Assembly (NCBI GenBank): GCA_016187365.1
Contig: JACPJX010000024.1
Location: 1 to 36,490 of the forward strand
Reading direction: 5' to 3'
Source: Candidatus Aenigmatarchaeota archaeon
GTDB lineage: Archaea > Aenigmatarchaeota > Aenigmatarchaeia > GW2011-AR5
Length of the DNA: 36,490 bases
The notes below the pieces were generated by a model, which saw only the letters and a program-made list of their open reading frames with translations, was not told the DNA's origin and made no database searches. Numbering within the stretch: position 1 is the stretch's first letter; the number at the start of each line of letters is the position of its first letter. The position numbers and the translations under genes were made by a program. Positions 16,196 through 34,532 of the stretch are shown here, one piece after another.

Positions 16196-16232
16196 ACCAA
16201 CACCCCACCTACCGGCCAGACGTTACCCGGCA

Positions 16233-16240: not shown

Positions 16241-16306
16241 CCTTCAAAATCTGCAGAGGAACTGGTTCCTTTGTATAAAGCGCATCTTTTTGCAGATTTA
16301 CCCCGA

Positions 16307-16846: not shown

Positions 16847-16854
16847 TTTAAATA
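16847..16854 (+). promoter_or_regulatory. TATA-box candidate giving a leaderless transcript for the 262-aa orphan gene
   Basis: TTTAAATA is centred about 28 nt upstream of the ATG at 16878. No SD-like sequence lies between them. Confidence 0.4.
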
Positions 16855-16877
16855 CGCTTTCATCATATCGGGCAAAT

Positions 16878-21842: not shown

Positions 21843-23087
21843 TCACTTCCGCATTTCTTCCAGTATTTTCTTCGCGTGAGACACGGATATCTTCTTGTCT
21901 TCAATCATCTTAGTTGAGACAGAGACGGCCTCCTCATGAGACGCCCCGGCCGACATGGCAATGTTTTTTGCGTGGAGTTTCATGTGGCCGCGCTGGATGC
22001 CTTCCGAGACTATGGCACGCAGGGCGGCAAAGTTGTTCGCGAGCCCGACGCACGCCATGACGCACGCCAGCTCGGAGGCGCTTTTCACGCCCAGAATTTT
22101 CAGCGAAGTTCTTGCGACAGGATTCGTCTTTGTCGCGCCGCCGACGATCCCGACCGCCAGAGGCATTTTCAGTCTGCCTACAAGGTCGCCTTCCGAGTTT
22201 TTTTCGTATTCTGCAAGAGGCCTGTAGCGGCCAATTGCCGCGTAGGCATGAGCCCCCGCTTCAAGCGCGCGGAAGTCGTTTCCGGTCGCTATTGCAACTG
22301 CATCCACGCCGTTCATTATACCCTTGTTGTTCGTGGCACACCTGTAAGCGTCAACCCTGGCAAGTTCATACGCATCGAGGATTCCCTCGATAACGTCTTC
22401 GCCTATCACGTCTTTTTTCCATACGGCGGCCGCGGCGGCGAGCCTCCTGTCGGCAAGATTCGAAATTATCTTCAGCACAGCCCTTCCTCCTGTAACTTCT
22501 TCAAGATACGGCGCCACGGCCTCGCACATGCTGTTCACGCAGTTGGCGCCCATGGCGTCCACGACATTGACTATGAGGTGCACGACGACCATGGGGCCGC
22601 GGGAAGAACCGATGAGTCTTACTTCAACATCCTCGAGGCCGCCGCCAAGTTTTACCATGACGGAATCCCTGCCGTTCGCAAGTTTTTTTATGGTGCTGAT
22701 ACCGGACAATATGGACTCCCTTGCCTTGTTTGTGTCGCTTATGCCGACGAGCTGCACCTGCCCTATCATCACAGGCTGGCTGCATTCTGCACGGAAACCA
22801 CAGGGGAGCGCGAGTTTTGCCGCGTTCGAGGCCGCCGCCACAACAGACGGCTCCTCAATGCACATCGGGATGAGATATTTCCTGCCGTTAATCACGAAAT
22901 TCACGGCTATACCGAAAGGCAGTTTCACCGTCCCTATGACGTTCTCCGACATCATTTCAGCAACGGACGCATCCAGAGGGCCTTCCAGGGATTTCATGTC
23001 GCTTTCATCGAGACCAGAAAGGGCTTTTATCTTCTTGATCTTCTCATCCCGGCTGAGCTTGTGGAATCCAGTCATGTCGTTTTTCAA
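21843..23087 (-). CDS. hmgA: HMG-CoA reductase, class II
   Basis: LPFGIAVNF.INGR.YLIPMCIEEPSVVAAASNAAK is the class II (Pseudomonas mevalonii / Archaeoglobus / Thermoplasma type) signature. GATKTNP is present near the C-terminus. The track start is TTG at 23087, with an alternative ATG at 23073-23075. Confidence 0.9.
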   Translation of the reverse strand: MKNDMTGFHKLSRDEKIKKIKALSGLDESDMKSLEGPLDASVAEMMSENVIGTVKLPFGIAVNFVINGRKYLIPMCIEEPSVVAAASNAAKLALPCGFRAECSQPVMIGQVQLVGISDTNKARESILSGISTIKKLANGRDSVMVKLGGGLEDVEVRLIGSSRGPMVVVHLIVNVVDAMGANCVNSMCEAVAPYLEEVTGGRAVLKIISNLADRRLAAAAAVWKKDVIGEDVIEGILDAYELARVDAYRCATNNKGIMNGVDAVAIATGNDFRALEAGAHAYAAIGRYRPLAEYEKNSEGDLVGRLKMPLAVGIVGGATKTNPVARTSLKILGVKSASELACVMACVGLANNFAALRAIVSEGIQRGHMKLHAKNIAMSAGASHEEAVSVSTKMIEDKKISVSHAKKILEEMRK

Positions 23088-23150
23088 TCAAATCACGTAT
23101 GATTTAATCATCTATAGAGGATTTTTAAGTTTAATTCCCAATCCAACTTA

Positions 23151-24311
23151 ATGCTAGATATGTTTAAAGACGAGAACCTGAAAAATCTGCTGATAATACT
23201 CCTCGTATACAAAATATTCATACTATCGCTCGGCACGATAACGTATTACACGGTTCCGGAGGAATTTTCGCATAAAAACACCGAGCTTGAAAATCCCCTC
23301 ACAAGGCCATGGCACCAGTTCGACACGATAGCCTACCTTAACATAGCATCAAAAGGCTATAATTATGAATATGGAGTGACCACGACGAATTTCGGATGGT
23401 ATCCTCTCTACCCCCTTCTTATCAGAATGTTCGGGGCTATAGGATACGATATCGCAGCGTACCTGATACCTCAGATATTTTCATTTCTGGCGGTGATATC
23501 GCTTTACATACTTCTGAAGAACCAGATAGGCACCAGCCTGACGAAAAAGACAGTATTCTATACAATGCTTTTTCCGACTGCATATTTTCTCTCGGCAATG
23601 TATACAGAATCCATATTTCTTTTCTTTTCGTGCATGACATTTTATTTTGCATCCAAGGAAAAATGGGCATATGCAGGCATAGTTGGATATTTTGCAGTAT
23701 TAACAAGGTTTATAGGTCTTGCCATGTTTATACCGGTTCTTTACATGTATCTCCGCTCGAAAAAATTCAGGTTGACGTCTCTGGACAGAAACATATTTTT
23801 CGTTTTTCTGCTGCCCATGGCTTTCATCACGTTTATGCTGTATCATTATGCAGCGCTGGGAAACCCATTCCTGCAATTTTACACCCAAGGCAATTTCAGC
23901 AGGACGATAGGTCTGCCGCATATGTCTTTTGTTAACACATTCAGCGAGATATTCACGACAGGCAGCGTCTTTGTAGTTTTTTATAACTATTTCAACGTAA
24001 TAATGACACTGGCATTTCTCTCAATCATGGTTTTATACTGGAAAAAGACGCCGCTGGAATATAATTTATATGTGTTATTCAGCTTCATTATGATACTTTC
24101 TTCAGGCATACTGGCTTCTGTCGTCAGGTTTGAGCTTGTCATGTTCCCCATTTTCATGTCAATTGCAAAGATTTCCGAAATCTCCAGAAAAAGCAGATTT
24201 ATAGTATCATTTATATTTGTCATGCTCTTTGCAATCCAAATTATAGCACTCATAAATCATGTCAACGGGGAAATAGATTTCAAAAGCTTTATAAAAACCC
24301 TGATGCCCTGA
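23151..24311 (+). CDS. GT-C type membrane glycosyltransferase, PIG-V-like mannosyltransferase family
   Basis: PWHQFDTIAYLNIASKGY...FGWYPLYPLLIRMF resembles the PIG-V / GPI-mannosyltransferase-2-like N-terminal signature. Polytopic. Confidence 0.55.
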   Translation: MLDMFKDENLKNLLIILLVYKIFILSLGTITYYTVPEEFSHKNTELENPLTRPWHQFDTIAYLNIASKGYNYEYGVTTTNFGWYPLYPLLIRMFGAIGYDIAAYLIPQIFSFLAVISLYILLKNQIGTSLTKKTVFYTMLFPTAYFLSAMYTESIFLFFSCMTFYFASKEKWAYAGIVGYFAVLTRFIGLAMFIPVLYMYLRSKKFRLTSLDRNIFFVFLLPMAFITFMLYHYAALGNPFLQFYTQGNFSRTIGLPHMSFVNTFSEIFTTGSVFVVFYNYFNVIMTLAFLSIMVLYWKKTPLEYNLYVLFSFIMILSSGILASVVRFELVMFPIFMSIAKISEISRKSRFIVSFIFVMLFAIQIIALINHVNGEIDFKSFIKTLMP

Positions 24312-24354
24312 AATTTTCATGCATTTATAAAATATAGGTTCATGTTCTTTAGAT

Positions 24355-25059
24355 ATGAGAGAAGAACTTTCCGTTATACTTCCCTGCTATAACGAAGCAA
24401 AAAATATATCTCTTCTTCTGGAAAGATACAGAGATGTGGCGAAAAGGATTCCTATAGAACTTGTACTGGTTAACAATGGCTCTCTGGATGATACTGAAAG
24501 CGTTCTAAAAAATATACTGCCCAAGTACAAGTTCGCCCGGAGCGTAAAGGTGAAAAAAAATATCGGATACGGATTTGGCGTTCTGGCGGGCCTGAAGGCG
24601 GCCAAATGCGAATTTCTTTCATATTCGCATGCAGACATGCAGTGCGACCCTGAGGATATATTAAGGGGATGGAAAATGCTTTCCGGAAGAAGGGATGTCA
24701 TGGTCAAGGGAAACAGGAAGGGCAGGAAGGTTTTCCTCACATCATGCTTCCATTTTCTCTCTTTTATGTTGTTTTTCAGGAGATTCAGCGACATAAACGG
24801 CCAGCCGAAGATTTTTCACAGAAGCTTTCTGAAGAAATTCCATAACCCACCATACGATGCTTCACTGGATTTCTATGTCCAGTACGCGGCGCTCAGGAGC
24901 GGCATGCAAGTAGTCGATTTCCCCGTGAAATTCAGGAAAAGGCTTCATGGGAAGTCATGGTGGAACAAGGGGATTCTCCCAAGGCTGAAATTTATGGTGT
25001 CTGCGACATCATACCTTCTGCGCCTCAGGTTTTCAAAAAGTAAGATTTCTACGGATTAA
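24355..25059 (+). CDS. GT2 glycosyltransferase
   Basis: LSVILPCYNEAKNI, VNNGSLDDT, NIGYGFGVLAGL, SHADMQCDPED. Confidence 0.8.
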   Translation: MREELSVILPCYNEAKNISLLLERYRDVAKRIPIELVLVNNGSLDDTESVLKNILPKYKFARSVKVKKNIGYGFGVLAGLKAAKCEFLSYSHADMQCDPEDILRGWKMLSGRRDVMVKGNRKGRKVFLTSCFHFLSFMLFFRRFSDINGQPKIFHRSFLKKFHNPPYDASLDFYVQYAALRSGMQVVDFPVKFRKRLHGKSWWNKGILPRLKFMVSATSYLLRLRFSKSKISTD

Positions 25060-25084
25060 AAAGATTTGCAAAAGAGTATTTGAA

Positions 25085-25744
25085 ATGATAAAGATAACGT
25101 CATCGCTTATGTGCGCAGATCAGCTCGAGCTTGGAAAGGAAATAAAGATGCTTGAGGAAGCCGGGACCGACTGGTTTCATATAGATCTGATGGACGGTTC
25201 TTTCGTCCCGAACTTTGCCATGGGAATATGGCAGATAAGCGCCATAAGAAAGGCCACGAGCCTTCCCATAGATATACACCTCATGTCCGTGAGCCCCGAA
25301 AGGCATATAAAAAAGATTTCATATCTCGGGGCCGACATAATAATTTTTCATATAGAAGCGGCAAAAAACGTCCAGGGAGTCATAAACGAAATAAAAAGCT
25401 ACGGAAAGTCTGTCGGCATAGCGATAAACCCGGAAACTTCGGTCGATTCTGTAAAGCCTTATCTGGAGGACTGCGACATCGTGATGTTTATGATGAATAG
25501 CCCCGGGTTTCCAGGCCAGAAATTTAATCAGATAATAATGAAAAAGATTTCAAACTTATATTCGTTCATAAAGGAAAACAGCTATAGGGCTGAAATTATG
25601 GTTGACGGCGCAGCGTCCGCAGAAACAATCCCCCTGCTCTCGAAAGCCGGGGCGACAATATTTGTAGGCGGGACATCAGGTCTTTTCGGAAAGAACAAGA
25701 CTTATCGTCAATGTATTGAGGAAATGAAAAAAGCTGGTAAATGA
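25085..25744 (+). CDS. rpe: ribulose-phosphate 3-epimerase family protein
   Basis: SLMCADQLELGKEI..LEEAGTDWFHIDLMDGSFVPNFAMG, IDIHLM and MVDGA motifs of the RPE/AlsE family. The stop overlaps the next ATG (ATGA at 25741-25744). Confidence 0.8.
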   Translation: MIKITSSLMCADQLELGKEIKMLEEAGTDWFHIDLMDGSFVPNFAMGIWQISAIRKATSLPIDIHLMSVSPERHIKKISYLGADIIIFHIEAAKNVQGVINEIKSYGKSVGIAINPETSVDSVKPYLEDCDIVMFMMNSPGFPGQKFNQIIMKKISNLYSFIKENSYRAEIMVDGAASAETIPLLSKAGATIFVGGTSGLFGKNKTYRQCIEEMKKAGK

Positions 25745-26763
25745 TGTATGCAGGAGTTTTGCACGGCCCGGGAAAAATAGAATACCAAGAGGTCGATTAC
25801 CCCGAGATATCTGGAAATGAAGTTATTGTGGGGGTGAAGTATGCAGGAATATGCGGCTCCGACATACAGCGCGTGATGGTAAAAGGCGCCTATCATCATC
25901 CGCTAGTTCCAGGCCATGAATTTTCCGGCGTCATAGAAGATGCAGGAGACAGCAAATTCCATACAGGACAGAAAGTGACAGTCTATCCGCTGATACCGTG
26001 CAAGAAATGCCACTCATGCGACAGCGGATCTTATCATTTGTGTGACAATTACAATTATCTCGGATCAAGATGCGACGGGGGGTTTGCGGAATTTGTAAAA
26101 TGCCCGTCTGAAAATATCATTCCACTTCCTGAAAACATCTCTCTTGAGAATGCGGCATTCACAGAACCCGCTTCTGTCAGCTTTCATGGCGTGTCAAAAG
26201 CCGGAATAAAGGAAGGCGATACCGTGGTTGTATACGGCCTTGGAACCATAGGAATGCTGGTTGCTCAGTGGGCCAGACTGATGGGTGCAGGGCTTATAAT
26301 CGGAGTAGACAGGAATTCGTATAAGCATCTTACAGCAAAAAGCCTAGGCGTAGATTATTGCATCAGCTCAGACGAGAATTCAGCGGAAATAATAAAGGAT
26401 TTGACAGGAAACAGAGGAGCAGACTGTGCTTTCGAGTGCGCCGGCTCGGCCTCCACACAGGAAAAATGCGTCATAGTATCGAAAAAAGGCGGCAGGATTG
26501 TCATGCTTGGGAATTCAGAAAGCGACTTCAGGGTAAGGAAAGAAAACGTCCCGCAGATACTGAGAAAGGAACTTTCCATATACGGGAGCTGGAACTCGAC
26601 AATAAAAGATGACTGGACAAAATCCATAGATGCGATGAAAAACGGGAAGATAAGGTGCGCTGACATCATTACACACCGCAAAAATCTCTCTGAAATAAAG
26701 CAGGTTTTTGAGGACCTGCACCAGAAATCTTATCCATATATAAAAGTTATTTTTGTTATATAA
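25741..26763 (+). CDS. zinc-dependent MDR dehydrogenase, GatD/TarJ-like sugar-(phosphate) alcohol dehydrogenase
   Basis: GICGSD...KGAYHHPLVPGHEFSG (compare the GatD GAHYYP..LGHEFSG), a structural-Zn Cys cluster CKKCHSCDSGSYHLC, and the Rossmann motif VYGLGTIG. Confidence 0.8.
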   Translation: MMYAGVLHGPGKIEYQEVDYPEISGNEVIVGVKYAGICGSDIQRVMVKGAYHHPLVPGHEFSGVIEDAGDSKFHTGQKVTVYPLIPCKKCHSCDSGSYHLCDNYNYLGSRCDGGFAEFVKCPSENIIPLPENISLENAAFTEPASVSFHGVSKAGIKEGDTVVVYGLGTIGMLVAQWARLMGAGLIIGVDRNSYKHLTAKSLGVDYCISSDENSAEIIKDLTGNRGADCAFECAGSASTQEKCVIVSKKGGRIVMLGNSESDFRVRKENVPQILRKELSIYGSWNSTIKDDWTKSIDAMKNGKIRCADIITHRKNLSEIKQVFEDLHQKSYPYIKVIFVI

Positions 26764-26766
26764 GCG

Positions 26767-27807
26767 ATGAAAGCGGCCGTCCTTGATGCACCGAAAAAAA
26801 TCAGCGCCAAAGAAGTGCCTATGCCGACGGTAACGGATAATACAGTTCTCCTGAGGGTGAAGGCCTGCGGCATCTGCGGTTCTGACATGAAGTTTTACAA
26901 TTATGGAGACCGCGTAAAAAAGTTTCCACACATACTCGGCCATGAAGTCGCCGGAGAGGTTGTGGAAGTCGGAAAAGGCGCCGGAAAATTCAGTGTCGGA
27001 GACAGGCTTGCCGTCGCGAATGAGATACCATGCAAATCATGCCCTTCCTGCAGGCGGGGATTCGAGAGCGTATGCGACAATATATTGGGGGTCGTTGGCG
27101 TTTCTGTAAATGGCGGCTTTGCAGAATATATGCTCATGAATGAGGACCTTGTAAGACAGGGACCTGTCAACAGGATGCCAGACAATATCTCGTTCGAGGA
27201 AGGGGCACTGGCGGAGCCTCTTGGCTGCGTCGTCAACGGGCTTGAATTTGCAAATATGGAAGAAGGCAAGGACGTTCTTGTCATAGGCACCGGACCCATA
27301 GGATGCATGGCAATAAGCCTTGCAAGAATTCTCGGCGCGTCGAAGATAACGGCAGCGGACAAAAACCCTATGCGGCTGGACATGGCACGCGCATTCGGCG
27401 CAGACCATTATATTTATGCGGAAAATGAGTACATTAGCGAAGCCATAGGCGTCACGAACGGAAAGGGATATGACGTCGTGATGTCGGCATGCAGCGACAT
27501 TTCAGCGCACCAAAACGCCATAATGGCGTCTGCAAAAGGCGGGTTTGTAAACCTGTTCGGGGGCGTCGCGAAAGGGCTTCCTGACACAGTCTCTTTTCCG
27601 AGCAACTTCATCCATTACAGGCAGTCGGCGATAGGCGGCTCGTTTTCCCAGACGAAAGATCACCACGGAAAAGCCCTTAAATATCTTGCAAGCGGTATGA
27701 TAAAAACGAAAAAAATAATCACCCACAGGTTTGCCTTGGATGAAATAGAAATGGCAATGGAAGCCGTGCAGAACGCCAAAGGCCTGAAAGTTATGCTAAT
27801 TCCATGA
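26767..27807 (+). CDS. zinc-dependent MDR dehydrogenase (sorbitol/threonine dehydrogenase-like)
   Basis: CGICGSDMKFY, LGHEVAGEVVEVG, CKSCPSCRRGFESVC, VIGTGPIG. Confidence 0.8.
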   Translation: MKAAVLDAPKKISAKEVPMPTVTDNTVLLRVKACGICGSDMKFYNYGDRVKKFPHILGHEVAGEVVEVGKGAGKFSVGDRLAVANEIPCKSCPSCRRGFESVCDNILGVVGVSVNGGFAEYMLMNEDLVRQGPVNRMPDNISFEEGALAEPLGCVVNGLEFANMEEGKDVLVIGTGPIGCMAISLARILGASKITAADKNPMRLDMARAFGADHYIYAENEYISEAIGVTNGKGYDVVMSACSDISAHQNAIMASAKGGFVNLFGGVAKGLPDTVSFPSNFIHYRQSAIGGSFSQTKDHHGKALKYLASGMIKTKKIITHRFALDEIEMAMEAVQNAKGLKVMLIP

Positions 27808-27817
27808 GAAGATATGT

Positions 27818-28717
27818 ATGAAACTGAAGCTAGGGATAAACACAGGATTCGCAGTCAACAGATTCCCGGAACCGGAAGAATGGTCAAGGATCGTAGGCGA
27901 TCTGGGTCTCAGGCACGTGCAGTTCACCGCCGATATGCTGAATGCCGCCCTCCCTGATGAAATAGTAAACGACCACATATCAAGAATAAACGAATGTTCA
28001 AGGGCAAACGGCTTCGCAATAGAAACAACATTCACCGGAGCTTTCACACGGGTCAACCATCTCTCCCATCCCGATGAATCCCTACGCAAATACTGGATAT
28101 CGTGGTTTAAGAGGTATGCAGAAATTTCAAGACGCCTCGGGGCGGAAAGCATGGGAAGTCATTTCGGTATCATGAGCGTTCGCGACCTGAAGGAAAGGAA
28201 AGATGAGATGCTGCAGAGGAATATTGACGGCTGGAAGGAGATATCAGTACATGCAAAAGCCACAGGGCTCAAGTATCTCACATGGGAACCCATGTCCATA
28301 CCGCGCGAATATGGCGAGAGCATAGAGGAAACAAGGAAGATACATTCCATTGTAAACAGACATACCGCCATCCCGATGAAACTATGCCTCGATGTCGATC
28401 ACGGCGACGTATCATCAAAGAACCCCAGAGACACGGACCCCTATGAATGGTTAATGGAATTTGCGAAAGAAGCCCCTATCATTCATATAAAACAAAGCCT
28501 GAAAGACAAGGGCGGCCACTGGCCTTTCATACATGAGAAGAACAAGGACGGAAAAATCATACCGGAAAAAATTTTACAGGCCCTTGAGGATGCCGGAGTG
28601 AAGGAGACAACCCTCCTCCTCGAGCTCTCATTCAGGGAAAGGGAGCCGTTTGAAAGCACAATATTGAACGATTTAAAGGCTTCTGTGGATTTCTGGAGGC
28701 CGTATGTGCCAGATTAA
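27818..28717 (+). CDS. sugar phosphate isomerase/epimerase (xylose-isomerase-like TIM barrel)
   Basis: Size and pattern of the AP-endonuclease-2/TIM family: an early GLRHVQF, a mid LGAESMGSHFG, then LTWEP and LCLDVDHGD. Confidence 0.6.
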   Translation: MKLKLGINTGFAVNRFPEPEEWSRIVGDLGLRHVQFTADMLNAALPDEIVNDHISRINECSRANGFAIETTFTGAFTRVNHLSHPDESLRKYWISWFKRYAEISRRLGAESMGSHFGIMSVRDLKERKDEMLQRNIDGWKEISVHAKATGLKYLTWEPMSIPREYGESIEETRKIHSIVNRHTAIPMKLCLDVDHGDVSSKNPRDTDPYEWLMEFAKEAPIIHIKQSLKDKGGHWPFIHEKNKDGKIIPEKILQALEDAGVKETTLLLELSFREREPFESTILNDLKASVDFWRPYVPD

Positions 28718-28749
28718 GGTTTAAATGCATAAAATCCACTCTTTTTTGA

Positions 28750-29640
28750 ATGAAGATTGTCATTCCTATGGCTGGCATTGGTAACCGCTTCCTTCAGCAG
28801 GGTTATCAAATACCAAAACCCCTCATAAAGATAGACGGCAGGCCGATGATAGAGCATGTATGTGATGCCTTCTCCCATGATGACGAGTTCCTTTTCATAT
28901 GCAACAAAGAACACGTTGAAAACACCGAGATGAAAAGCGTCCTTTCGGGCATAGCAAAAAACGCCTCCATAGTGGCCATAGAGCAGCATAAACTCGGTCC
29001 CGTGCATTCAGTACTGCTTGCAAAGGACGCCGTTGATGACGGCGAGGAGGTCATAGTCAATTACTGCGATTTCACGATTGAATGGGATTACAAAAAATTC
29101 ATGGAATTCATGCGTTCCAACAATGCCGACGGCGGCATCCCGTCGTTCCGGGGGTTTCATCCGGCCTCTCTCGGAAACACAAAATATGCGTACCTGAAGA
29201 CAGACGTCTCACTTCACGTTTCTGAAATAATGGAAAAGGAGTGTTTCTCCGATGACAAGATGCAGGATTTTGCTGCCACAGGTACCCATTACTTCCGTAC
29301 GGGGGCATTAATGAAGAAATACTTTTCACGTGCCGTTGCCGAAGGCCTCTCGATAAATGGCGAGTTTTATGCCAGCCTGCCTTTCAACCTCATGATAAGA
29401 GACGGGCTCAGGGTTCTTGCATTTGAGGTGAAAAAATTCATATGCTTCGGGACTCCTTACGACCTCAACCAGTATGATGCATGGTCGTATCATTTCTCTC
29501 ACCTGTCAAACGGCGGCTTCACAAGCAATGCCGACCTTTCAGGCGTGCCCATGAAGGAGAGCATAAACAACCTTCTGGGCCAGAACGAGTACTGGCGTGA
29601 CTACTTCAGGAAAAAACCATATCATCCCTACGGGAAGTAA
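28750..29640 (+). CDS. sugar-phosphate nucleotidyltransferase (NTP-transferase fold)
   Basis: N-terminal MKIVIPMAGIGNRF....IPKPLIKIDGRPMIEHV is the G-x-G-x-R...PK(P) nucleotide-binding signature. About 60 aa of C-terminal extension. Confidence 0.7.
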   Translation: MKIVIPMAGIGNRFLQQGYQIPKPLIKIDGRPMIEHVCDAFSHDDEFLFICNKEHVENTEMKSVLSGIAKNASIVAIEQHKLGPVHSVLLAKDAVDDGEEVIVNYCDFTIEWDYKKFMEFMRSNNADGGIPSFRGFHPASLGNTKYAYLKTDVSLHVSEIMEKECFSDDKMQDFAATGTHYFRTGALMKKYFSRAVAEGLSINGEFYASLPFNLMIRDGLRVLAFEVKKFICFGTPYDLNQYDAWSYHFSHLSNGGFTSNADLSGVPMKESINNLLGQNEYWRDYFRKKPYHPYGK

Positions 29641-29649
29641 CGATATCAA

Positions 29650-30666
29650 TCATACAGCCACTTCCTCATAAACTTTCTTCGTCTTTTTCGAGGTTTTTTT
29701 CCATGTAAATTTTTTTGCATGTTTTACGGATTTCGCTGACATCTTTCTGGAAAGTTTCCTGCTTTCCAGTATCATCGACACCTTATTGCATATCTCGGAC
29801 GCGTCAAGGGGGTTGAAATACAGTGGCGCATCCCCCAGTATCTCAGGCACAGCGGCGGCATCGCTTGCCGCCACAGGACAGCCGCATGCCATCGCTTCGA
29901 GAGGTGCGAACCCGAACCCTTCAAAAAGAGACGGGTATACGAATGCCTTTGCACTGGAATAATATTCTGCCATCTGTTTCTGCGTAAGGTTTCCAGTGAC
30001 TATCACATCTCTTTCAAGCCCCATTGAAAGTATCTTTTTCCAAATGAAAGGATTATTGTAGTTCTTCACAAGTTTGATTTCAGGGTATTCCTTCTTTAGC
30101 ATGCAAAATGCCTCTATAAACGCCGCGACATTTTTCCTCTTCTCCTCCGAGCCAAAATATACTATGTAGTCAGTGTCATTCTTTTTCTTTCTCGGCCAGA
30201 AATCCTCCGATATTCCGGAATGAATCACGTATATTTTCCCACCGTCAACACCAAGATATTTTACCAGTTGATGCTTGGTGAATTCTGAAACAGCTATAAT
30301 TTTTTCACACTTCTCCACACCCCTTATCATGAGCCTTGAGAATGCAGCATACTTTCTGTTTTCAAAGAATTCAGGGTTGGAAAATGCCATAAGGTCGTGG
30401 CATGTTGCAATGGTGCGATTTTTCATCCCGAATCTGCTGAAATACCCGAAAGTCTGGGAAGCGAGATGGAGTATCCCGCCAGGCGGCAGGCTTTTCTTTA
30501 CAAACTTCGGATATCGTATATAATCCATAATACCTGACATTTTTTTTTCCACGATGACAATTTTCACGTCCTTGTCCATGTTTTTTACCAGATTTAACGC
30601 ATAGTTTTTTATCCCCCAGTTATATTTGCCGCTCATGTCATTTGCCGCGATTGTGACGTTCATCAT
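29650..30666 (-). CDS. GT4 (group 1) glycosyltransferase
   Basis: FVYPSLFEGFGFAPLEAMACGCPVAASD is the E-x7-E retaining GT-B signature. Confidence 0.85.
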   Translation of the reverse strand: MMNVTIAANDMSGKYNWGIKNYALNLVKNMDKDVKIVIVEKKMSGIMDYIRYPKFVKKSLPPGGILHLASQTFGYFSRFGMKNRTIATCHDLMAFSNPEFFENRKYAAFSRLMIRGVEKCEKIIAVSEFTKHQLVKYLGVDGGKIYVIHSGISEDFWPRKKKNDTDYIVYFGSEEKRKNVAAFIEAFCMLKKEYPEIKLVKNYNNPFIWKKILSMGLERDVIVTGNLTQKQMAEYYSSAKAFVYPSLFEGFGFAPLEAMACGCPVAASDAAAVPEILGDAPLYFNPLDASEICNKVSMILESRKLSRKMSAKSVKHAKKFTWKKTSKKTKKVYEEVAV

Positions 30667-32171
30667 CTGGAATACCTCTCCAATAATCTTAAGATTCTTT
30701 CAGGCATAATGCCGGAGCTCTTTACTATACGCATATCAGAGCTGTTGAAGAGCCTGACTTTAAGAAAGAAGGAAAGGTAGAAAGCTGCTGCAAAAGTTAC
30801 GGATATCACGGCTTCTGTGAATATATTCATGTTAAGGACATTCTTTGTCATATAAATTATGAGCATAGAAAGCAGAGAAGCCGCGAATATGGCAGATATT
30901 TCCTTTAATGGAATGGTTATTCTGAAATGCCCCCCAAGATACCTGTATAATATCACGAACCCTACTATGTAGGATGAGGCCGTAGAAACAGCGGCCCCTT
31001 CAATCCCGAAAACCGGTATTATCATGATGTTTGCCGCAAGATTGTACAGGGAAATAATAATTATGGCTGTGGTGTTTTTTCTGGGCTGGCCTATAGCATT
31101 CAGAATTACGGAGAACACCATATTCATGCTGAAAAATATCATCCCAAAACTCAGTATCTGGAGGGAAAGGCTTGAACTGAGATAATTGCCGCCAAAGAAT
31201 ATGTTGATTATTATCTCAGGGAACGCCATGAACAGGAGGCTTATGAACGCCATGAACAGGAATATCGATTTTATCATGAACCCCATGTATCCGGATATAT
31301 CGCTCTTTCTGCCTTTTGACCAGACCTCAGATATGACGGGAAAAAGTATGGCTGTGAATGATGATGAAAATATAAGAAGCATCTGGGATGTTGAGACTGA
31401 TACTTGGTAAAGCCCCACCTCATAAAGCGACCTGAAATACGTTAATACCATAGTGTCTGCGTACCCTATGACAAAGGTTGCGACGTTTCCCATGAAAATG
31501 AAAGAGCCAAAGACTGCAAGCGGCTTTAAAATATTCCCGGAAGATGGATCAGAATTTCTAAAACCTCCAACCACCCTCGCTACATAGATTACCATAAAGG
31601 CTTGTATTGCCAACGAAGCCAAAAAATAACTAATCGCTATGTTTTCTATATTCGCGCCGCCGAACAGGAAAATAAATATAAATATCGTTATTATTCTGAC
31701 AGTCTCGACAAGCGAAAAGACCACCATTTTTTGCAGCCCCTGCAGCAGCATCTTGAGAAATATCACACCCAGAACTATCTCAATAGAAAACAATTTTATG
31801 AGGAACGACGCCTTTTCATTGTGAAAAAATCCGATAGAAATATAATCAGACAGAAGAAAGAGCGCAAGACCTATAAACGCGCCTATGGCAAATTGCACGA
31901 GAAACGACGCCTTTATTACCCGCTTTATGTCGTTGTATCTGCCATTCACTTCAAATTCAGGCACATATTTTACAAGAGCCGTGCCTATCCCGAAATCCTT
32001 CATCACCCAGAAAAAAGAGAAAAAAGCCAGAACCGAATAGAAAAGGCCGAAGTCCTCCACCGCCGTGTTCCTTGCTATAAAAAGCCGCAGCATATAGCCA
32101 AGGACAGCCCCCATAAGAGAAAATACAAAGACTATTATTGTGGCCCTGGCTATCCTGCATGTATAGTTCAT
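30663..32171 (-). CDS. Wzx-like oligosaccharide flippase (MOP superfamily polysaccharide biosynthesis protein)
   Basis: 502 aa with about 12-14 TM segments. The N-terminus is typical of PF01943-type flippases. The stop overlaps the GT4 start by 4 nt. Confidence 0.75.
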   Translation of the reverse strand: MNYTCRIARATIIVFVFSLMGAVLGYMLRLFIARNTAVEDFGLFYSVLAFFSFFWVMKDFGIGTALVKYVPEFEVNGRYNDIKRVIKASFLVQFAIGAFIGLALFLLSDYISIGFFHNEKASFLIKLFSIEIVLGVIFLKMLLQGLQKMVVFSLVETVRIITIFIFIFLFGGANIENIAISYFLASLAIQAFMVIYVARVVGGFRNSDPSSGNILKPLAVFGSFIFMGNVATFVIGYADTMVLTYFRSLYEVGLYQVSVSTSQMLLIFSSSFTAILFPVISEVWSKGRKSDISGYMGFMIKSIFLFMAFISLLFMAFPEIIINIFFGGNYLSSSLSLQILSFGMIFFSMNMVFSVILNAIGQPRKNTTAIIIISLYNLAANIMIIPVFGIEGAAVSTASSYIVGFVILYRYLGGHFRITIPLKEISAIFAASLLSMLIIYMTKNVLNMNIFTEAVISVTFAAAFYLSFFLKVRLFNSSDMRIVKSSGIMPERILRLLERYSR

Positions 32172-32265
32172 GCCTGATATTTCAGGGAAACATCTTTTAA
32201 ATGCATCATAGAACGATTATCTAATCGTCTCAACAATTTAAGACATTTGGCTCATATTCACCATC

Positions 32266-32802
32266 ATGATGAAGAGGCTGAACATCGGCTGCGGCACTGA
32301 TATAAAGGAAGGCTGGATAAACCTCGATTCCGCCGCCATTAAAGGCGTCGATGTAGTACATGACATAGAAAAACTCCCCCTTCCATTCAAGAGAGGGGAG
32401 TTTGACGAGGTGCTTTGCCGGAATATACTGGAGCATGTTGATTACATCCCGGTCCTGAAAGATATCCACAGGATAATGAAAAATGGGGGGAGGCTGATCA
32501 TAACGGCCCCTCATTTCACCTCAAAGCACAATTTCATCGACCCTACGCACAAAAAGATGTTTTCGATCAGCACGTTCGATTTTTTTGTCGAGGGCTCAAA
32601 AATACGCAGGGATTACTATTTCGGCTTCTCTTTTGGCGCGATAGAATATTCCAAAATCACATTCCAGAAAGGGATGTTTTTATACAATCATGTTGTAGAG
32701 AAGATTGTAAATTCCAGCCGCGGGATGATGCAATTTTATGAATCCACGCTGCTTTCCAGGCTGTTCCCAGCCCAGGATATTGAGGCATGCCTCGTTAAAT
32801 GA
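32266..32802 (+). CDS. class I SAM-dependent methyltransferase
   Basis: LNIGCGTDIKEGWINLD (motif I) ... FDEVLCRNILEHV ... MKNGGRLIITAP. Confidence 0.8.
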   Translation: MMKRLNIGCGTDIKEGWINLDSAAIKGVDVVHDIEKLPLPFKRGEFDEVLCRNILEHVDYIPVLKDIHRIMKNGGRLIITAPHFTSKHNFIDPTHKKMFSISTFDFFVEGSKIRRDYYFGFSFGAIEYSKITFQKGMFLYNHVVEKIVNSSRGMMQFYESTLLSRLFPAQDIEACLVK

Positions 32803-34449
32803 TCACCATACAACTTCTACTCCATTCCCGATGACAAGGTATCTGACGTTATATTTCCTTAGCACACCAAGCCTGTCGTTTTCACCCATTTCCGGCAGTT
32901 TTTTGTAGTTTTCCACCTTTTCCCAGTAATCCCTTATGACGTAACCGTTCCCGGAAAGAACAGATTTTTTACCGATATAATATGGAACGAGATCCGACCG
33001 CCCAACGTCAATAAATACAACTCCGTCTTCCATATCCCTGAGCGGCATTATGGAATCAAATTTTTCTTTCTCTATGTAAAGATCATGATTAATTTCGGGG
33101 CTTACCATATAATAATTGTAGACCAGTATTGTCGGCATCGACAGCAAAATTACGGCAAACACTGTACAGGCAGATTTTATGTTATGGCTACGGGAAAATC
33201 TTATCACACCCTTTGCCGCCAGGATTGACAATGGTATCGTAGAAACCCCTATCGTCCTGCCGGCAATCCAGACAGCAAGATCCTGCGGAAACATCGAAAT
33301 AAAAACCACCGCGTATGCCCACAAGAACAGAAACCCGTCAATGTTACCCGCAAAAAAATTCCTGTTTTTCCTGAAAATGGCGTAAATAAATGCCGCCATA
33401 TATACGATAAAAAATGATTGCATCACCAAAGACAGGTGCCTTTCGATTTTAATGTCCAAATTCAGCGATTTCTTTATGCCGGCAAGTTCTGCGTCCCCAT
33501 GAATGCCCGCCTGGCCTATTGTGGAAACAACGAAAGCAGCCAGAAAGGCCACTGCAAATATTTTCCACCCCGGAAGCGACAGCTTTCCCCTGAGGTAATA
33601 AAACGAAAAGAAGAACAGAAAGGCCATGGATATGACCAGGGTAGGCAGAAATTCGCCTATGCCTGTGCTGATACTTGCCCTATAAACTCTTATATATTCG
33701 CCGCCGCTCAGGAAAGTAAAAACCCATGGCGATGCAAAAGCCGCAACCACCGGAAGAAATTTTATGGCGGTTCTCTTCCTGATACCAAAGGACAAAACAT
33801 AAATTATATGCGCAAGGAAAAACATGAAGCCGTAGTTAGGATAGACAAATATACAGAGGCCAAGAAAAATACTTGATGCCAGAAGCCTCTTCTTTGAGAG
33901 AAAATAAAGCGAGACTACTCCTAGAAAAGGCGAGAGGGAATAGTATATGGCTTCGTCATTCTTGAAGCCGCCGTACCCAAATCCTGCCTGTATCCCCTTT
34001 CCAAGAATGTCAGGATAAAATATCCCGAGAGCGGCAAGAATTGCTCCGCCAAGACCGGCGGAAATCATGTAAATAAGCGTTGAGTAAATGCCGGTTTCGT
34101 TTCTGCCGGAAAATATATATATCGAGATGCCGGCAGCGAAAAGAAACACGCTTATCGCCAGGAAAAACCCAATCCAGTCGGATATGAAAACCCCGAGCAA
34201 AACAAGGATCCATGTGCTTCCGACACCGGAGGTGGAAAAAACGCTCTCCGTTTCTTCGGCATTCCACGGATTCTGATAGCCTATTTTGCCAGATGTTATA
34301 ATGTCCATGTTAAGCATGTAGGCCCTTCCGGAAGAAACAAAGTAAGACCCCTCGGGAGTGTTTATGTAAGAATAAACATACCTCATTAAAGGGATGGAAG
34401 AGATGATTATCAAAATAACAAGGAAAACCGCCGTTTTTCTTTCCATCAA
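32803..34449 (-). CDS. large polytopic membrane protein with a C-terminal soluble domain (GT-C-like / glycan polymerase candidate)
   Basis: 548 aa with more than 10 hydrophobic segments, then a soluble tail of about 90 aa ending ...LRKYNVRYLVIGNG. I saw no AglB WWDYG motif. The family was not recognised precisely. Confidence 0.55.
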   Translation of the reverse strand: MMERKTAVFLVILIIISSIPLMRYVYSYINTPEGSYFVSSGRAYMLNMDIITSGKIGYQNPWNAEETESVFSTSGVGSTWILVLLGVFISDWIGFFLAISVFLFAAGISIYIFSGRNETGIYSTLIYMISAGLGGAILAALGIFYPDILGKGIQAGFGYGGFKNDEAIYYSLSPFLGVVSLYFLSKKRLLASSIFLGLCIFVYPNYGFMFFLAHIIYVLSFGIRKRTAIKFLPVVAAFASPWVFTFLSGGEYIRVYRASISTGIGEFLPTLVISMAFLFFFSFYYLRGKLSLPGWKIFAVAFLAAFVVSTIGQAGIHGDAELAGIKKSLNLDIKIERHLSLVMQSFFIVYMAAFIYAIFRKNRNFFAGNIDGFLFLWAYAVVFISMFPQDLAVWIAGRTIGVSTIPLSILAAKGVIRFSRSHNIKSACTVFAVILLSMPTILVYNYYMVSPEINHDLYIEKEKFDSIMPLRDMEDGVVFIDVGRSDLVPYYIGKKSVLSGNGYVIRDYWEKVENYKKLPEMGENDRLGVLRKYNVRYLVIGNGVEVVW

Positions 34450-34532
34450 AATCCCGCCATGAATGATGAATATGGTAGAATTTCAGGCATTTATAACTAT
34501 CCAAAGAAGCAGTCATATCAGGGACGTTCACG

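What the first reader, a model, noticed from the sequence alone, without database searches (positions are those of the whole stretch)
25085..29640. Tightly packed epimerase, two Zn-ADHs, isomerase and nucleotidyltransferase: a possible nucleotide-activated alditol (teichoic-acid-type precursor) pathway in an archaeon
Seen: five co-directional genes have gaps of 32 nt or less, and one pair overlaps as ATGA. They encode a ribulose-phosphate 3-epimerase-family enzyme, a GatD/TarJ-like MDR dehydrogenase, a second MDR dehydrogenase, a TIM-barrel sugar-phosphate isomerase/epimerase, and an NTP-transferase. Established: CDP-ribitol for Gram-positive teichoic acids is made by an MDR-type ribulose-5-P reductase (TarJ) plus a cytidylyltransferase (TarI), and analogous routes give CDP-arabinitol and other activated alditols in bacterial capsules. 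Inference: this cassette converts a pentose/ketose phosphate to an NDP-alditol (or an unusual NDP-ketose/rare sugar). The product would then be incorporated by the neighbouring GTs into a cell-surface glycan. Alditol-phosphate glycopolymers are not a standard feature of archaeal envelopes.
Basis: partly seen in the sequence, partly recalled or inferred. Interest (0 to 1): 0.65.

Follow-up and report, generated by a model that had tools for sequence, protein, structure and literature searches.

The report
Conserved rare-sugar activation operon in archaeon
Five tightly packed genes, plus the glycosyltransferase gene just upstream, form an uncharacterised but widespread module that most likely turns a pentulose phosphate into a nucleotide-activated rare sugar for lipid-linked cell-surface glycosylation, with the sugar alcohol phosphate only as a passing intermediate, not a teichoic-acid building block.

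Summary
Five intact + strand ORFs (25085-29640), with gaps of -4, 3, 10 and 32 nt, encode an Rpe-family epimerase, two Zn-MDR dehydrogenases, a TIM-barrel enzyme and a nucleotidyltransferase (NT1).

- **TIM-barrel enzyme.** It is a full-length homologue of Brucella EryC (PDB 4k3z, E 8e-75), a ketose-1-phosphate 3-epimerase.
- **NT1.** It belongs to a distinct BcbE/4EVW-like family. All its structural neighbours are anomeric sugar-1-P nucleotidyltransferases, none TarI/IspD.
- **Conservation.** The same four supply genes plus NT1 plus a small DPM1/GtrB-like GT2 recur in 13 loci from DPANN archaea and three bacterial phyla, in shuffled orders.
- **Alternative supply set.** In about 65 further loci, nearly all bacterial, the NT1+GT2 core sits with phosphoribulokinase-like, RuBP-5-phosphatase-like HAD and class II aldolase-like genes. 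That set has no reductase.
- **Window context.** No alditol-phosphate transferase is present. A GT-C glycosyltransferase and the GT2 lie directly upstream.

Best reading: pentulose-5-P is converted through a pentitol-P intermediate to a ketopentose-1-P, then to an NDP-sugar, a dolichyl-P-sugar and finally the surface glycan. The exact sugar is unknown. The NDP-alditol/teichoic reading is not supported. I found no paper on the module.

The parts
23151..24311 (+). GT-C superfamily membrane glycosyltransferase (386 aa). Candidate final transferase that uses a dolichyl-phosphate-linked sugar. It is a lineage backbone gene at the edge of the variable glycan island.
   Evidence: No Pfam hit itself. 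Homologues at E 1e-33 to 1e-15 carry PF04188 (PIG-V), PF13231 (PMT_2) and PF09594 (GT87). The AF2 model has pLDDT 95, and its PDB neighbours are almost all GT-C or GT-C-like membrane proteins: STT3, ArnT, ALG, Pmt, Emb, Aft, PimE. In relatives L098 and L100 the orthologue is followed by STT3-like and other glycan genes instead of the module.
24324..24336 (+). TATA-box-like element TTTATAAAATATA, 19-31 nt before the GT2 start codon. Possible archaeal promoter of a leaderless six-gene transcript.
   Evidence: Read directly. Promoter function is inferred, not tested.
24355..25059 (+). Small soluble GT2 (234 aa) of the polyprenyl-phosphate glycosyltransferase type (DPM1/GtrB/ArnC/PpgS-like). Proposed to load the NT1 product on dolichyl phosphate.
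   Evidence: PF00535, E 5e-18. Best PDB sequence hits are GtrB sll0501, P. furiosus DPMS and ArnC. An orthologue accompanies NT1 in 72 of 94 loci. It is fused to a GtrA_DPMS_TM domain in L095.
25085..25744 (+). Ribulose-phosphate 3-epimerase family enzyme (219 aa). Proposed reaction: Ru5P <-> Xu5P.
   Evidence: PF00834, E 6e-58. TIGR01163 scores 214.4 against a cut-off of 212.6; the AlsE model scores 193 against 271. PDB Rpe and AlsE hits at about 1e-41. Present in most of the 13 A-type loci, and in all that are long enough to show it.
25741..26763 (+). Zn-MDR dehydrogenase MDR1 (340 aa), GatD-like. Proposed to reduce pentulose-5-P to a pentitol phosphate.
   Evidence: ADH_N + ADH_zinc_N. GatD model scores 218.6 bits against 550. 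PDB 4a2c GatD, E 1e-53. It forms a separate orthogroup with one copy per locus, and keeps an acidic residue at the end of beta2 (NAD-type).
26767..27807 (+). Zn-MDR dehydrogenase MDR2 (346 aa), Tdh/sorbitol-DH/IolM-like. Proposed to re-oxidise the pentitol phosphate at the carbon next to the phosphate, giving a ketopentose-1-P.
   Evidence: It is a second orthogroup with one copy per A-type locus, 31% identical to MDR1, and also has the NAD-type acidic residue.
27818..28717 (+). EryC-type xylose-isomerase-like TIM-barrel enzyme (299 aa). Proposed ketose-1-phosphate 3-epimerase.
   Evidence: PDB 4k3z (Brucella EryC), E 8e-75 over residues 1-297. The WEPMS and DHGDV motifs are identical and LELSF is also shared. 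About 2000 homologues; JGI names some of them 'D-erythrulose 1-phosphate 3-epimerase'. EryC is the tetrulose-4-P racemase (PMC11508834).
28750..29640 (+). NT1: BcbE/4EVW-type sugar-phosphate nucleotidyltransferase (296 aa) with a roughly 50-aa C-terminal helical extension. Proposed to activate the pathway product as an NDP-sugar.
   Evidence: PF00483, 41 bits. No NCBIfam equivalog is approached: the best scores 44 bits against 292. PDB 4evw, E 1e-7. The AF2 model has pLDDT 89, and its fold neighbours are all sugar-1-P nucleotidyltransferases. 430 relatives in species-level genomes.
29650..32171 (-). Convergent GT4 glycosyltransferase (29650-30666) and Wzx/MurJ-type polysaccharide flippase (30663-32171). 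Glycan-island context.
32803..34449 (-). 548-aa polytopic membrane protein of a small unannotated family, also found twice in the Aenigmarchaeota module locus L007. Possible glycan-related transferase or polymerase.
   Evidence: phmmer hits to the L007 607-aa and 583-aa proteins at 9e-23 and 1.5e-13. Only 57 representatives among 1.8 billion proteins; one is fused to a GT2 domain.

Best explanation
The five genes and the GT2 gene just upstream (24355-29640) form one biosynthetic module that supplies a rare sugar for lipid-linked surface glycosylation.

**Proposed chemistry, in gene order**
1. The Rpe-family enzyme interconverts ribulose-5-P and xylulose-5-P.
2. MDR1 (GatD-like) reduces the keto group to give a pentitol phosphate, for example D-arabinitol-1-P.
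3. MDR2 re-oxidises that pentitol phosphate at the carbon next to the phosphate, giving a ketopentose-1-phosphate such as D-ribulose-1-P.
4. The EryC-type enzyme epimerises C3, for example to D-xylulose-1-P.

The two NAD-type dehydrogenases would thus act as a redox-neutral pair that moves the phosphate from the far end to the keto end of the pentulose. NT1 then nucleotidylates the product. The DPM1/GtrB-like GT2 passes it to dolichyl phosphate, and a GT-C enzyme adds it to a surface glycan. The candidate GT-C is 23151-24311.

**Shown:** gene structure, family assignments, conserved co-occurrence and the alternative supply set.

**Inferred:** substrates, order of steps, stereochemistry, the nucleotide used, and how a 1-phosphate ketose becomes a glycosyl donor. 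Most relatives carry three extra genes that the window lacks and that may serve that last step: a second nucleotidyltransferase (NT2), a PI-PLC/GDPD-like protein and sometimes a cyclic phosphodiesterase.
For: **Anatomy and families.**

**EryC-like enzyme.** Full-length match to PDB 4k3z at E 8e-75. EryC racemises 3-tetrulose-4-P, which is erythrulose-1-P (PMC11508834). JGI uses the name 'D-erythrulose 1-phosphate 3-epimerase' for homologues.

**Conserved module.** Rpe + MDR1 + MDR2 + EryC-like + NT1 + GT2 occur together in 13 loci:
- Archaea: Aenigm-, Micr-, Nano-, Woese- and Altiarchaeota, and a Methanosarcinales MAG.
- Bacteria: Omnitrophica, Anaerohalosphaeraceae and Dependentiae.
- Gene orders differ between loci. 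The Micrarchaeota loci share the window's order.

**Dehydrogenases.** Each locus has exactly one MDR1-type and one MDR2-type enzyme. Both keep the acidic NAD-type residue.

**Alternative supply set.** About 65 loci have a different set beside the NT1/GT2 core, and the two sets never occur together:
- A phosphoribulokinase-like domain (NF005655, 202 bits).
- A HAD whose best model is RuBP 5-phosphatase (167 bits).
- A class II aldolase-like protein.

RuBP phosphatase yields ribulose-1-P, the substrate of a class II aldolase (PMC9700705). Both supply sets therefore point to a ketopentose-1-P.

**Exit steps.**
- GT2: best solved relatives are GtrB, DPMS and ArnC. It is fused to GtrA_DPMS_TM in L095. 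GtrA is present in 34 loci.
- The upstream 386-aa protein has a GT-C fold.
- NT1 structural neighbours are all sugar-1-P nucleotidyltransferases.
Against: - No enzyme in this module has been assayed, and I found no paper on it.
- A ketose-1-phosphate carries its phosphate on a primary carbon. NDP-1-ketose is therefore not an obvious glycosyl donor for a DPM1-like GT2.
- The window lacks NT2, the PLC-like protein, the cyclic phosphodiesterase and GtrA. It is the only one of 13 A-type loci without NT2.
- NT1 proteins of the two module types form separate clades, so the two types may make different products.
- The HAD, PRK and GatD matches are all below their equivalog cut-offs.
- An 85%-identical NT1 lies in another context, after RmlC/RmlD/SDR-like genes. 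Its contig is only 4.8 kb, so supply genes further upstream cannot be excluded.
- The GT-C gene is a backbone gene, not module-specific.
- Hexulose substrates are not excluded: the AlsE model scores 193 bits against 214 for Rpe.
Confidence: 0.5

Rival explanations
1. First reader's reading. The cassette makes an NDP-alditol (CDP-ribitol, CDP-arabinitol or similar). One MDR acts like TarJ and the nucleotidyltransferase like TarI. The alditol phosphate is built into a teichoic-acid-like surface polymer.
For: - The best models for MDR1 are alditol-phosphate dehydrogenases (GatD).
- An Rpe-family enzyme would supply Ru5P or Xu5P.
- A nucleotidyltransferase closes the operon, which lies in a glycan island.
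- A-type NT1 proteins form their own clade, so they could have a substrate different from the reductase-free B type.
Against: - The IspD/TarI model scores below threshold, and no IspD or TarI structure is among the top 50 fold neighbours.
- The window has no TagF/TarL, LicD or CDP-alcohol phosphotransferase.
- The conserved partner is a DPM1/GtrB-like GT2 with GtrA and GT-C, which are glycosyl-transfer components.
- Known NDP-alditol routes need only two enzymes (PMC10918830). This reading leaves MDR2 and the EryC-like epimerase unexplained, yet both are strictly conserved.
- Both MDRs look NAD-type. As I recall it (not checked here), TarJ uses NADPH.
Confidence: 0.17
2. The module is a nucleotide-sugar module, but with a different substrate or order of steps from the one proposed. 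Examples: hexulose-6-P chemistry (AlsE-like 3-epimerase, GatD-like hexitol-P dehydrogenase); NT1 acting early, with one MDR working on a nucleotide-linked ketose; or the EryC-like enzyme acting as an isomerase that gives an aldose-1-P.
For: - The AlsE model scores nearly as well as Rpe (193 against 214 bits).
- GatD acts on a hexitol phosphate.
- NT1 resembles enzymes that take anomeric sugar-1-phosphates.
- An 85%-identical NT1 lies beside SDR-type NDP-sugar-modifying enzymes.
- In C. jejuni, the nucleotidyltransferase acts before the reductase in CDP-glucitol synthesis (PMC10918830).
Against: - The alternative supply set (PRK-like, RuBP-5-phosphatase-like, class II aldolase-like) fits pentulose chemistry best. 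Fructose-1,6-bisphosphate would need no dedicated kinase.
- The EryC-like protein matches a proven ketose-1-P 3-epimerase over its full length (E 8e-75).
- The gene order in the window and in Micrarchaeota matches the proposed pentulose order.
Confidence: 0.25
3. A catabolic polyol or tetritol/pentitol utilisation operon, like gat or ery, that merely lies next to glycan genes. The nucleotidyltransferase would be unrelated.
For: GatD and EryC, the closest characterised relatives of two of the enzymes, are catabolic.
Against: - The unit has no kinase, PTS, transporter or regulator.
- No EryA, EryB, EryH or EryI is present.
- The four genes are tied to NT1 + GT2 in 13 loci of unrelated lineages.
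- NT1 scores far below every standard G1P, M1P or GlcNAc-1-P nucleotidyltransferase model.
Confidence: 0.03

Closest known systems
Brucella erythritol pathway enzyme EryC (tetrulose-4-phosphate racemase = D-erythrulose-1-phosphate 3-epimerase, EC 5.1.3.38; PDB 4k3z)
   Same: Full-length homology (E 8e-75), with the WEPMS, DHGDV and LELSF motifs shared. The probable chemistry is the same: epimerisation at C3 of a 2-ketose carrying a 1-phosphate.
   Different: The context is biosynthetic, not catabolic. There is no EryA, EryB, EryH or EryI. The substrate is probably a C5 ketose-1-P, not a C4 one. This member is untested.
CDP-ribitol (TarI/TarJ, Bcs1), CDP-arabinitol (AbpA/AbpB) and CDP-6-D-glucitol (C. 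jejuni HS5.17/HS5.18) pathways
   Same: Each starts from a ketose phosphate, uses a dehydrogenase and a nucleotidyltransferase, and makes a product for a surface polymer.
   Different: - Those routes need two enzymes (PMC10918830). This one has four enzymes before the transferase.
- Their transferase is IspD-type, and NT1 is not.
- They are paired with alditol-phosphate transferases, which are absent here.
- The partner here is a DPM1/GtrB-like GT2.
Three-component extracytoplasmic glycosylation systems (GtrA/GtrB/GtrC; ArnC/ArnEF/ArnT; mycobacterial PpgS/Rv3632/Rv3630; PRPP-based pentofuranose systems, PMC11127046)
   Same: A small GT2 of the polyprenyl-phosphate glycosyltransferase type, a GT-C enzyme, and in relatives a GtrA or ArnE/F-like flippase.
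   Different: - The sugar and its dedicated supply pathway are new.
- The published pentofuranose systems use PRPP and a UbiA-type synthase, not a nucleotidyltransferase + GT2.
- The window itself has no GtrA.
Non-carboxylating pentose bisphosphate pathway of haloarchaea (RuBP phosphatase + ribulose-1-P aldolase; PMC9700705)
   Same: The bacterial version of the module pairs a RuBP-5-phosphatase-like HAD with a class II aldolase-fold protein. This implies ribulose-1-P as an intermediate.
   Different: That pathway is catabolic, ending in DHAP + glycolaldehyde. Here the set is joined to a kinase and feeds a nucleotidyltransferase. The window uses the dehydrogenase/epimerase route instead.
BcbE-like nucleotidyltransferases (Pasteurella multocida capsule locus; V. 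cholerae 4EVW structural-genomics protein)
   Same: 4EVW is the closest solved relative of NT1 by sequence and fold. Some homologues are annotated 'glycosyltransferase family 2'. I believe, from memory, that this annotation comes through the CDD BcbE-like model.
   Different: No substrate is known for any member, so the family gives no functional transfer.

Membership tests
TarI/IspD-type CDP-alditol cytidylyltransferase | Significant match to the IspD/TarI profile (PF01128 at or above its gathering score) | tested here: not met
   PF01128 scores 20.1 bits against a gathering score of 27. TIGR00453 scores 18.8 against 181.
TarI/IspD-type CDP-alditol cytidylyltransferase | Closest structural neighbours are IspD/TarI-type enzymes | tested here: not met
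   The AF2 model has pLDDT 89. The top 50 PDB neighbours are 4evw, GMPP, GalU, GlmU and ST0452, with no IspD or TarI.
TarJ-type ribulose-5-P reductase | Zn-dependent MDR fold with catalytic and structural zinc ligands | tested here: met
   ADH_N + ADH_zinc_N. The GICGSD, GHE and Cys-rich loop motifs are visible in both MDRs.
TarJ-type ribulose-5-P reductase | NADPH-dependent reduction of Ru5P to ribitol-5-P as the committed product | not testable with these tools
   The sequence shows only an acidic residue at the end of beta2 in both MDR groups, which suggests NAD rather than NADP. No TarJ-specific model is in the libraries.
Teichoic-acid-type alditol-phosphate polymer system | An alditol-phosphate transferase (TagF/TarL Glyphos_transf, LicD, or CDP-alcohol phosphotransferase) near the precursor genes | tested here: not met
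   None was found among 30 ORFs of the window, including all the large ones, scanned against Pfam, nor among the families conserved in 94 related loci.
Ribulose-phosphate 3-epimerase (TIGR01163) | Score at or above the equivalog cut-off | tested here: met
   214.4 against 212.6, which is marginal. The AlsE model scores 193 against 271.
Galactitol-1-phosphate 5-dehydrogenase GatD (NF007642) | Score at or above the equivalog cut-off | tested here: not met
   218.6 against 550. GatD is the best hit but this is not a member.
EryC, D-erythrulose-1-phosphate 3-epimerase | Full-length homology to the solved or characterised enzyme | tested here: met
   4k3z, E 8e-75, residues 1-297 of 299.
EryC, D-erythrulose-1-phosphate 3-epimerase | Erythritol operon context (EryA kinase, EryB dehydrogenase, EryH/EryI isomerases) | tested here: not met
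   None is in the window or in any of the 13 module loci.
Three-component polyprenyl-phosphate-sugar glycosylation system | GT2 polyprenyl-phosphate glycosyltransferase | tested here: met
   Best solved relatives are GtrB, DPMS and ArnC at E 4e-7 to 1e-4. NCBIfam gives ArnC and PpgS hits. The orthologue is fused to GtrA_DPMS_TM in L095. Activity is untested.
Three-component polyprenyl-phosphate-sugar glycosylation system | GT-C fold transferase | tested here: met
   The protein at 23151-24311: homologues carry PIG-V, PMT_2 and GT87 domains. The model has pLDDT 95 and its neighbours are almost all GT-C or GT-C-like. It is a backbone gene, so its link to this sugar is not shown.
Three-component polyprenyl-phosphate-sugar glycosylation system | Small GtrA or ArnE/F-type flippase | tested here: not met
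   No GtrA-like ORF is in the window. GtrA is present in 34 related loci and an EamA pair in L007.
Conserved 'A-type' module (Rpe, MDR1, MDR2, EryC-like, NT1, NT2, PLC-like, GT2) | All four supply genes plus NT1 and GT2 are adjacent | tested here: met
Conserved 'A-type' module (Rpe, MDR1, MDR2, EryC-like, NT1, NT2, PLC-like, GT2) | Second nucleotidyltransferase NT2 and the PI-PLC/GDPD-like protein | tested here: not met
   tblastn of the whole window finds neither. The window is the only one of 13 loci without NT2.

The most novel reading that the evidence does not exclude
The module is the missing biosynthetic route to glycosidically transferable pentulofuranose, such as the D-xylulofuranose found in some O antigens. 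The precursor genes for that sugar are unknown (PMC7685785).

The route would start from a ketopentose-1-P, made either by the redox 'phosphate-end swap' seen here or by PRK + RuBP 5-phosphatase. In the full versions it would then run as follows:
1. NT1 activates the ketopentose-1-P.
2. The PI-PLC/GDPD-like protein cyclises it to a 1,2-cyclic phosphate.
3. The cyclic phosphodiesterase opens the ring to the anomeric 2-phosphate.
4. NT2 re-activates the product.
5. The GT2 loads it on polyprenyl phosphate.
6. A GT-C enzyme transfers it to the glycan.

The window would carry a reduced version of this pathway.
Probability: 0.12. Interest if true: 0.85.

Novelty: new variant of a known kind. Interest (0 to 1): 0.6.

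Why it matters
- **Scale.** The core (NT1 + small GT2) occurs in about 430 species-level genomes, from DPANN archaea to Flavobacteria, Leptospira, Bacillota and an E. coli plasmid. The EryC-like protein has about 2000 homologues. Seven full-text searches found no paper describing the module.
- **New biochemistry, if the reading holds.** It would define a rare-sugar pathway with two non-homologous solutions for making a ketopentose-1-phosphate. It would also be an unusual case of paired dehydrogenases moving a phosphate from one end of a sugar to the other.
- **New surface chemistry.** It would add a previously unrecognised sugar to archaeal and bacterial envelope glycans.
- **An annotation correction.** EryC-like and GatD-like genes in such clusters are not polyol catabolism genes and not teichoic-acid genes.

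Tried and rejected
- **Literature.** Seven full-text searches covered EryC/tetrulose, ribulose-1-P + nucleotidyltransferase, xylulose + capsule, pentose bisphosphate, methylthioxylose, pentulofuranose names, and GtrA + PRK + aldolase. None describes this module. Angala 2017 on methylthioxylose is not held in the library.
- **PLC-like protein.** The ~195-aa conserved partner gave no Pfam or PDB sequence hit, even with a 29-sequence profile. Its PI-PLC/GDPD assignment rests on PGAP product names and an HRxN...ExDxR...H(D/E)P motif. It could not be folded because it is not a window protein.
- **Link to xylulofuranose-bearing E. coli O95/O97.** Only two E. coli genomes carry the module, both on plasmids of about 33 kb. 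Serotypes could not be tied to it, so I dropped this line.
- **386-aa GT-C protein against the membrane domain fused to PRK.** BLAST shows no similarity.
- **Source organism.** Names are masked for window proteins. The closest NT1 relatives are labelled Aenigmarchaeota. No genome in the species set is closer than 55%.
- **Are the two module types isofunctional?** The NT1 tree splits them into two clades. A common product therefore remains an assumption.
- **Sigma-70 promoter/terminator scan.** Not used, because the window is archaeal.

Full report
**1. The observation**

One search confirms five intact + strand ORFs at 25085-25744, 25741-26763, 26767-27807, 27818-28717 and 28750-29640. The first two overlap as ATGA. 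The other gaps are 3, 10 and 32 nt.

Pfam and NCBIfam give these assignments:
- ORF 1: an Rpe-family epimerase. TIGR01163 scores 214.4, just above its 212.6 cut-off. The allulose-6-P epimerase model scores 193, below 271.
- ORF 2 (MDR1): a Zn-MDR dehydrogenase. Its best model and best solved relative is GatD (218.6 bits against 550; PDB 4a2c, E 1e-53).
- ORF 3 (MDR2): a second Zn-MDR dehydrogenase, closest to threonine, sorbitol and inosose dehydrogenases.
- ORF 4: a xylose-isomerase-like TIM barrel.
- ORF 5 (NT1): a weakly scoring NTP_transferase.

Two things were missed:
- A 234-aa GT2 gene (24355-25059) lies 25 nt upstream on the same strand. It is preceded by a TATA-like TTTATAAAATATA at 24324-24336. 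The transcription unit is probably six genes.
- The TIM-barrel protein is a full-length homologue of PDB 4k3z, Brucella EryC (E 8e-75).

**2. Setting**

The window is archaeal. It encodes Orc1/Cdc6, an intein-bearing PolB, NAC, SecDF, the archaeal HMG-CoA synthase/thiolase pair and HMG-CoA reductase.

From about 23 kb onwards G+C drops from 0.50-0.57 to 0.40-0.50, and every gene is glycan-related:
- a 386-aa membrane protein and the GT2;
- the five genes;
- a convergent GT4 and a Wzx-type flippase;
- a methyltransferase;
- a 548-aa membrane protein;
- a second GT2;
- a GFO/IDH/MocA oxidoreductase and a DegT aminotransferase.

The 386-aa protein is a GT-C glycosyltransferase. Its homologues carry PIG-V, PMT_2 and GT87 domains. 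A pLDDT-95 model matches almost only GT-C or GT-C-like structures such as STT3, ArnT, ALG, Pmt, Emb, Aft and PimE.

In two related genomes with the same backbone genes, this GT-C gene is followed by an STT3-like gene and other glycan genes instead of the module. The GT-C gene therefore marks the edge of a variable glycan island, and GT2 + five genes are island cargo.

None of the 30 window ORFs scanned against Pfam, which include all the large ones, is a TagF/TarL, LicD or CDP-alcohol phosphotransferase.

**3. The module elsewhere**

NT1 belongs to a distinct family.
- Its best solved relative is the uncharacterised V. cholerae protein 4EVW.
- It reaches no NCBIfam equivalog; the best scores 44 bits against 292.
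- Its relatives include many ~515-aa tandem fusions with a second nucleotidyltransferase domain, NT2.

A scan of one genome per species found 430 relatives. I fetched 80 loci, plus others by exact look-up. I then tabulated gene content by tblastn and by all-against-all clustering.

*The constant core*

| Component | Loci (of 94, including duplicates) |
|---|---|
| NT1 | all |
| small GT2 | 72 |
| NT2 | nearly all |
| ~195-aa protein | 64 |
| GtrA | 34 |

PGAP names the ~195-aa protein 'phosphatidylinositol-specific phospholipase C/glycerophosphodiester phosphodiesterase family'.

*Two supply sets that never occur together*

- **Type A** is the window's set: Rpe + MDR1 + MDR2 + EryC-like. I found it in 13 loci:
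  - Archaea: the window, Aenigm-, Micr-, Nano-, Woese- and Altiarchaeota, and a Methanosarcinales MAG.
  - Bacteria: Omnitrophica, Anaerohalosphaeraceae and Dependentiae.
  - Gene order is shuffled between lineages, but in Micrarchaeota it is the same as in the window.
  - Each locus has exactly one MDR1-type and one MDR2-type enzyme.
- **Type B** occurs in about 65 loci. Nearly all are bacterial; a few are archaeal MAGs. They include Flavobacterium, Leptospira, Virgibacillus, Paenibacillus, an Azospirillum plasmid and an E. coli IncR plasmid. It has three components:
  - a ~700-aa protein with a polytopic N-terminal domain and a phosphoribulokinase-like C-terminal domain (NF005655, 202 bits);
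  - a HAD whose best model is ribulose-1,5-bisphosphate 5-phosphatase (167 bits, below cut-off);
  - a 364-aa class II aldolase-fold protein.

  Type B contains no conserved reductase.

**4. What this implies**

- EryC racemises L/D-3-tetrulose-4-P (PMC11508834). Numbered from the other end, that compound is erythrulose-1-P. JGI's name for homologues is 'D-erythrulose 1-phosphate 3-epimerase'.
- The haloarchaeal RuBP phosphatase removes the 5-phosphate to give ribulose-1-P, which a class II aldolase then handles (PMC9700705).

The last enzyme of both supply sets thus belongs to a family that works on 2-ketose 1-phosphates. Type B reads naturally as Ru5P -> RuBP -> ribulose-1-P -> (aldolase-fold enzyme).

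Type A can reach the same kind of compound without ATP:
1. Rpe gives Xu5P.
2. One MDR reduces C2 to a pentitol phosphate.
3. The other MDR oxidises the carbon next to the phosphate. Read from the phosphate end, the product is a ketopentose-1-P.
4. The EryC-like enzyme epimerises C3.

One consistent version is Ru5P -> Xu5P -> D-arabinitol-1-P -> D-ribulose-1-P -> D-xylulose-1-P. This follows the gene order. A second version is Ru5P -> ribitol-5-P -> L-ribulose-1-P -> L-xylulose-1-P.

Both MDR groups keep the acidic residue typical of NAD-dependent Rossmann folds, which fits a redox-neutral pair. All of this chemistry is inference. It explains why two dehydrogenases and two epimerases are conserved together, which the NDP-alditol reading does not.

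**5. The exit steps**

- **NT1.** Its model (pLDDT 89) has only anomeric sugar-1-P nucleotidyltransferases among its 50 best PDB neighbours. The IspD/TarI profile scores below threshold.
- **GT2.** Its best solved relatives are the polyprenyl-phosphate glycosyltransferases GtrB, DPMS and ArnC. In Omnitrophica it is fused to a GtrA_DPMS_TM domain.
- **Flippases.** GtrA, or an ArnE/F-like EamA pair, accompanies the GT2 in many loci.

Together with the GT-C protein this is the layout of a three-component extracytoplasmic glycosylation system. It resembles the systems described for pentofuranoses (PMC11127046), but uses a nucleotidyltransferase + GT2 where those use PRPP + a UbiA-type synthase.

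**6. The open problem**

An NDP attached to O-1 of a ketose is not a glycosyl donor. Most loci carry NT2, the PLC/GDPD-like protein and sometimes a 2H cyclic phosphodiesterase next to NT1. In the closest NT1 relative (85% identity) the PLC-like and cyclic phosphodiesterase genes directly follow NT1.

One speculative solution is a phosphate walk:
1. NT1 activates the 1-phosphate.
2. The PLC-like enzyme forms a 1,2-cyclic phosphate.
3. The phosphodiesterase opens the ring to the anomeric 2-phosphate.
4. NT2 re-activates the product.

The window lacks NT2, PLC-like, CPDase and GtrA genes. It is the only type A locus without NT2. It is therefore either a reduced version, or it depends on genes elsewhere in the genome, or the real chemistry differs from this proposal.

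**7. Caveats**

- NT1 proteins of types A and B form separate clades, so a common product is assumed, not shown.
- Several key matches (GatD, PRK, RuBP phosphatase) are best hits below their equivalog cut-offs.
- Hexulose substrates are not excluded.
- The 85%-identical NT1 lies on a 4.8-kb contig after RmlC/RmlD/SDR-like genes, with no supply genes in view.

**8. Comparison, novelty and verdict**

The cassette works like a nucleotide-sugar pathway coupled to a lipid-linked glycosylation system. It is not a member of the TarI/TarJ, GatD or ery systems (see the membership table). Known NDP-alditol routes use only a transferase and a reductase (PMC10918830).

Seven literature searches found no description of the module. 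I rate it a new variant of a known kind. It is real, conserved, widespread and biochemically unassigned.

- Observation: confirmed.
- Confidence in the general mechanism proposed here: about 0.5.
- Interest: 0.6.

Noticed in passing
window 34533-35252 (+): A second GT2 gene is broken in the window. Compared with the otherwise identical metagenome contig L002 (intact 238-aa GT2), the window lacks about 89 nt after codon 69 and runs into stop codons. This is either a population variant (pseudogene) or an assembly error.
   Followed up: partly
window 32803-34449 (-); L007 1104-2927 and 5499-7250: The 548-aa polytopic membrane protein belongs to a very small family with no annotation: 57 representatives among 1.8 billion proteins and no Pfam hit. 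Two paralogues sit in the Aenigmarchaeota module locus. One family member (P0334) is fused to a GT2 domain.
   Followed up: partly
L103 3685-4808; L104 636-2423: The closest relative of the window's nucleotidyltransferase (85% identity) is followed by convergent PI-PLC/GDPD-like and 2H cyclic phosphodiesterase genes. It is preceded by RmlC-like, RmlD-like and SDR genes and a 248-aa unknown, not by the Rpe/MDR/EryC set. The contig is only 4.8 kb.
   Followed up: partly
L101 (E. coli plasmid NZ_CP145712.1, 6022-14984); L102 (Azospirillum brasilense p5): The bacterial version of the module lies on a ~33-kb IncR E. coli plasmid, with an identical copy on a 32.6-kb plasmid record of a second strain, and on an Azospirillum plasmid. 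It comprises the tandem nucleotidyltransferase, GtrA, GT2, the PLC-like protein, the membrane-PRK fusion, the HAD and the class II aldolase-like protein. These are culturable, tractable hosts for testing it.
   Followed up: partly
L011 6142-8193 and 52 other loci: In the bacterial module the phosphoribulokinase-like domain is fused to a ~390-aa polytopic N-terminal domain with weak GT87/PMT_2 (GT-C-like) hits. That would fuse the first soluble step to a membrane component.
   Followed up: no
window 9507-13655 (-): The family B DNA polymerase gene (1382 aa) carries an intein with a LAGLIDADG homing-endonuclease domain.
   Followed up: no
window 16196-16877: An AT-rich (G+C about 0.37) non-coding stretch lies directly beside orc1/cdc6 (14975-16195, -). 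It is a likely replication origin. Only one short direct repeat pair and one AT-rich palindrome were detected.
   Followed up: partly
window 23000-36490: G+C falls from 0.50-0.57 to 0.40-0.50 exactly where the glycan genes begin. Related genomes hold different glycan genes at the same backbone position (after the GT-C gene). This is a variable, probably exchanged, glycosylation island.
   Followed up: partly
window 28-606 (+): An MtrA-like protein fused to a pterin-binding DUF4346 domain lies next to GT2 and LPG_synthase_TM genes. This arrangement is conserved in relatives L098 and L100. Its function here is unclear.
   Followed up: no
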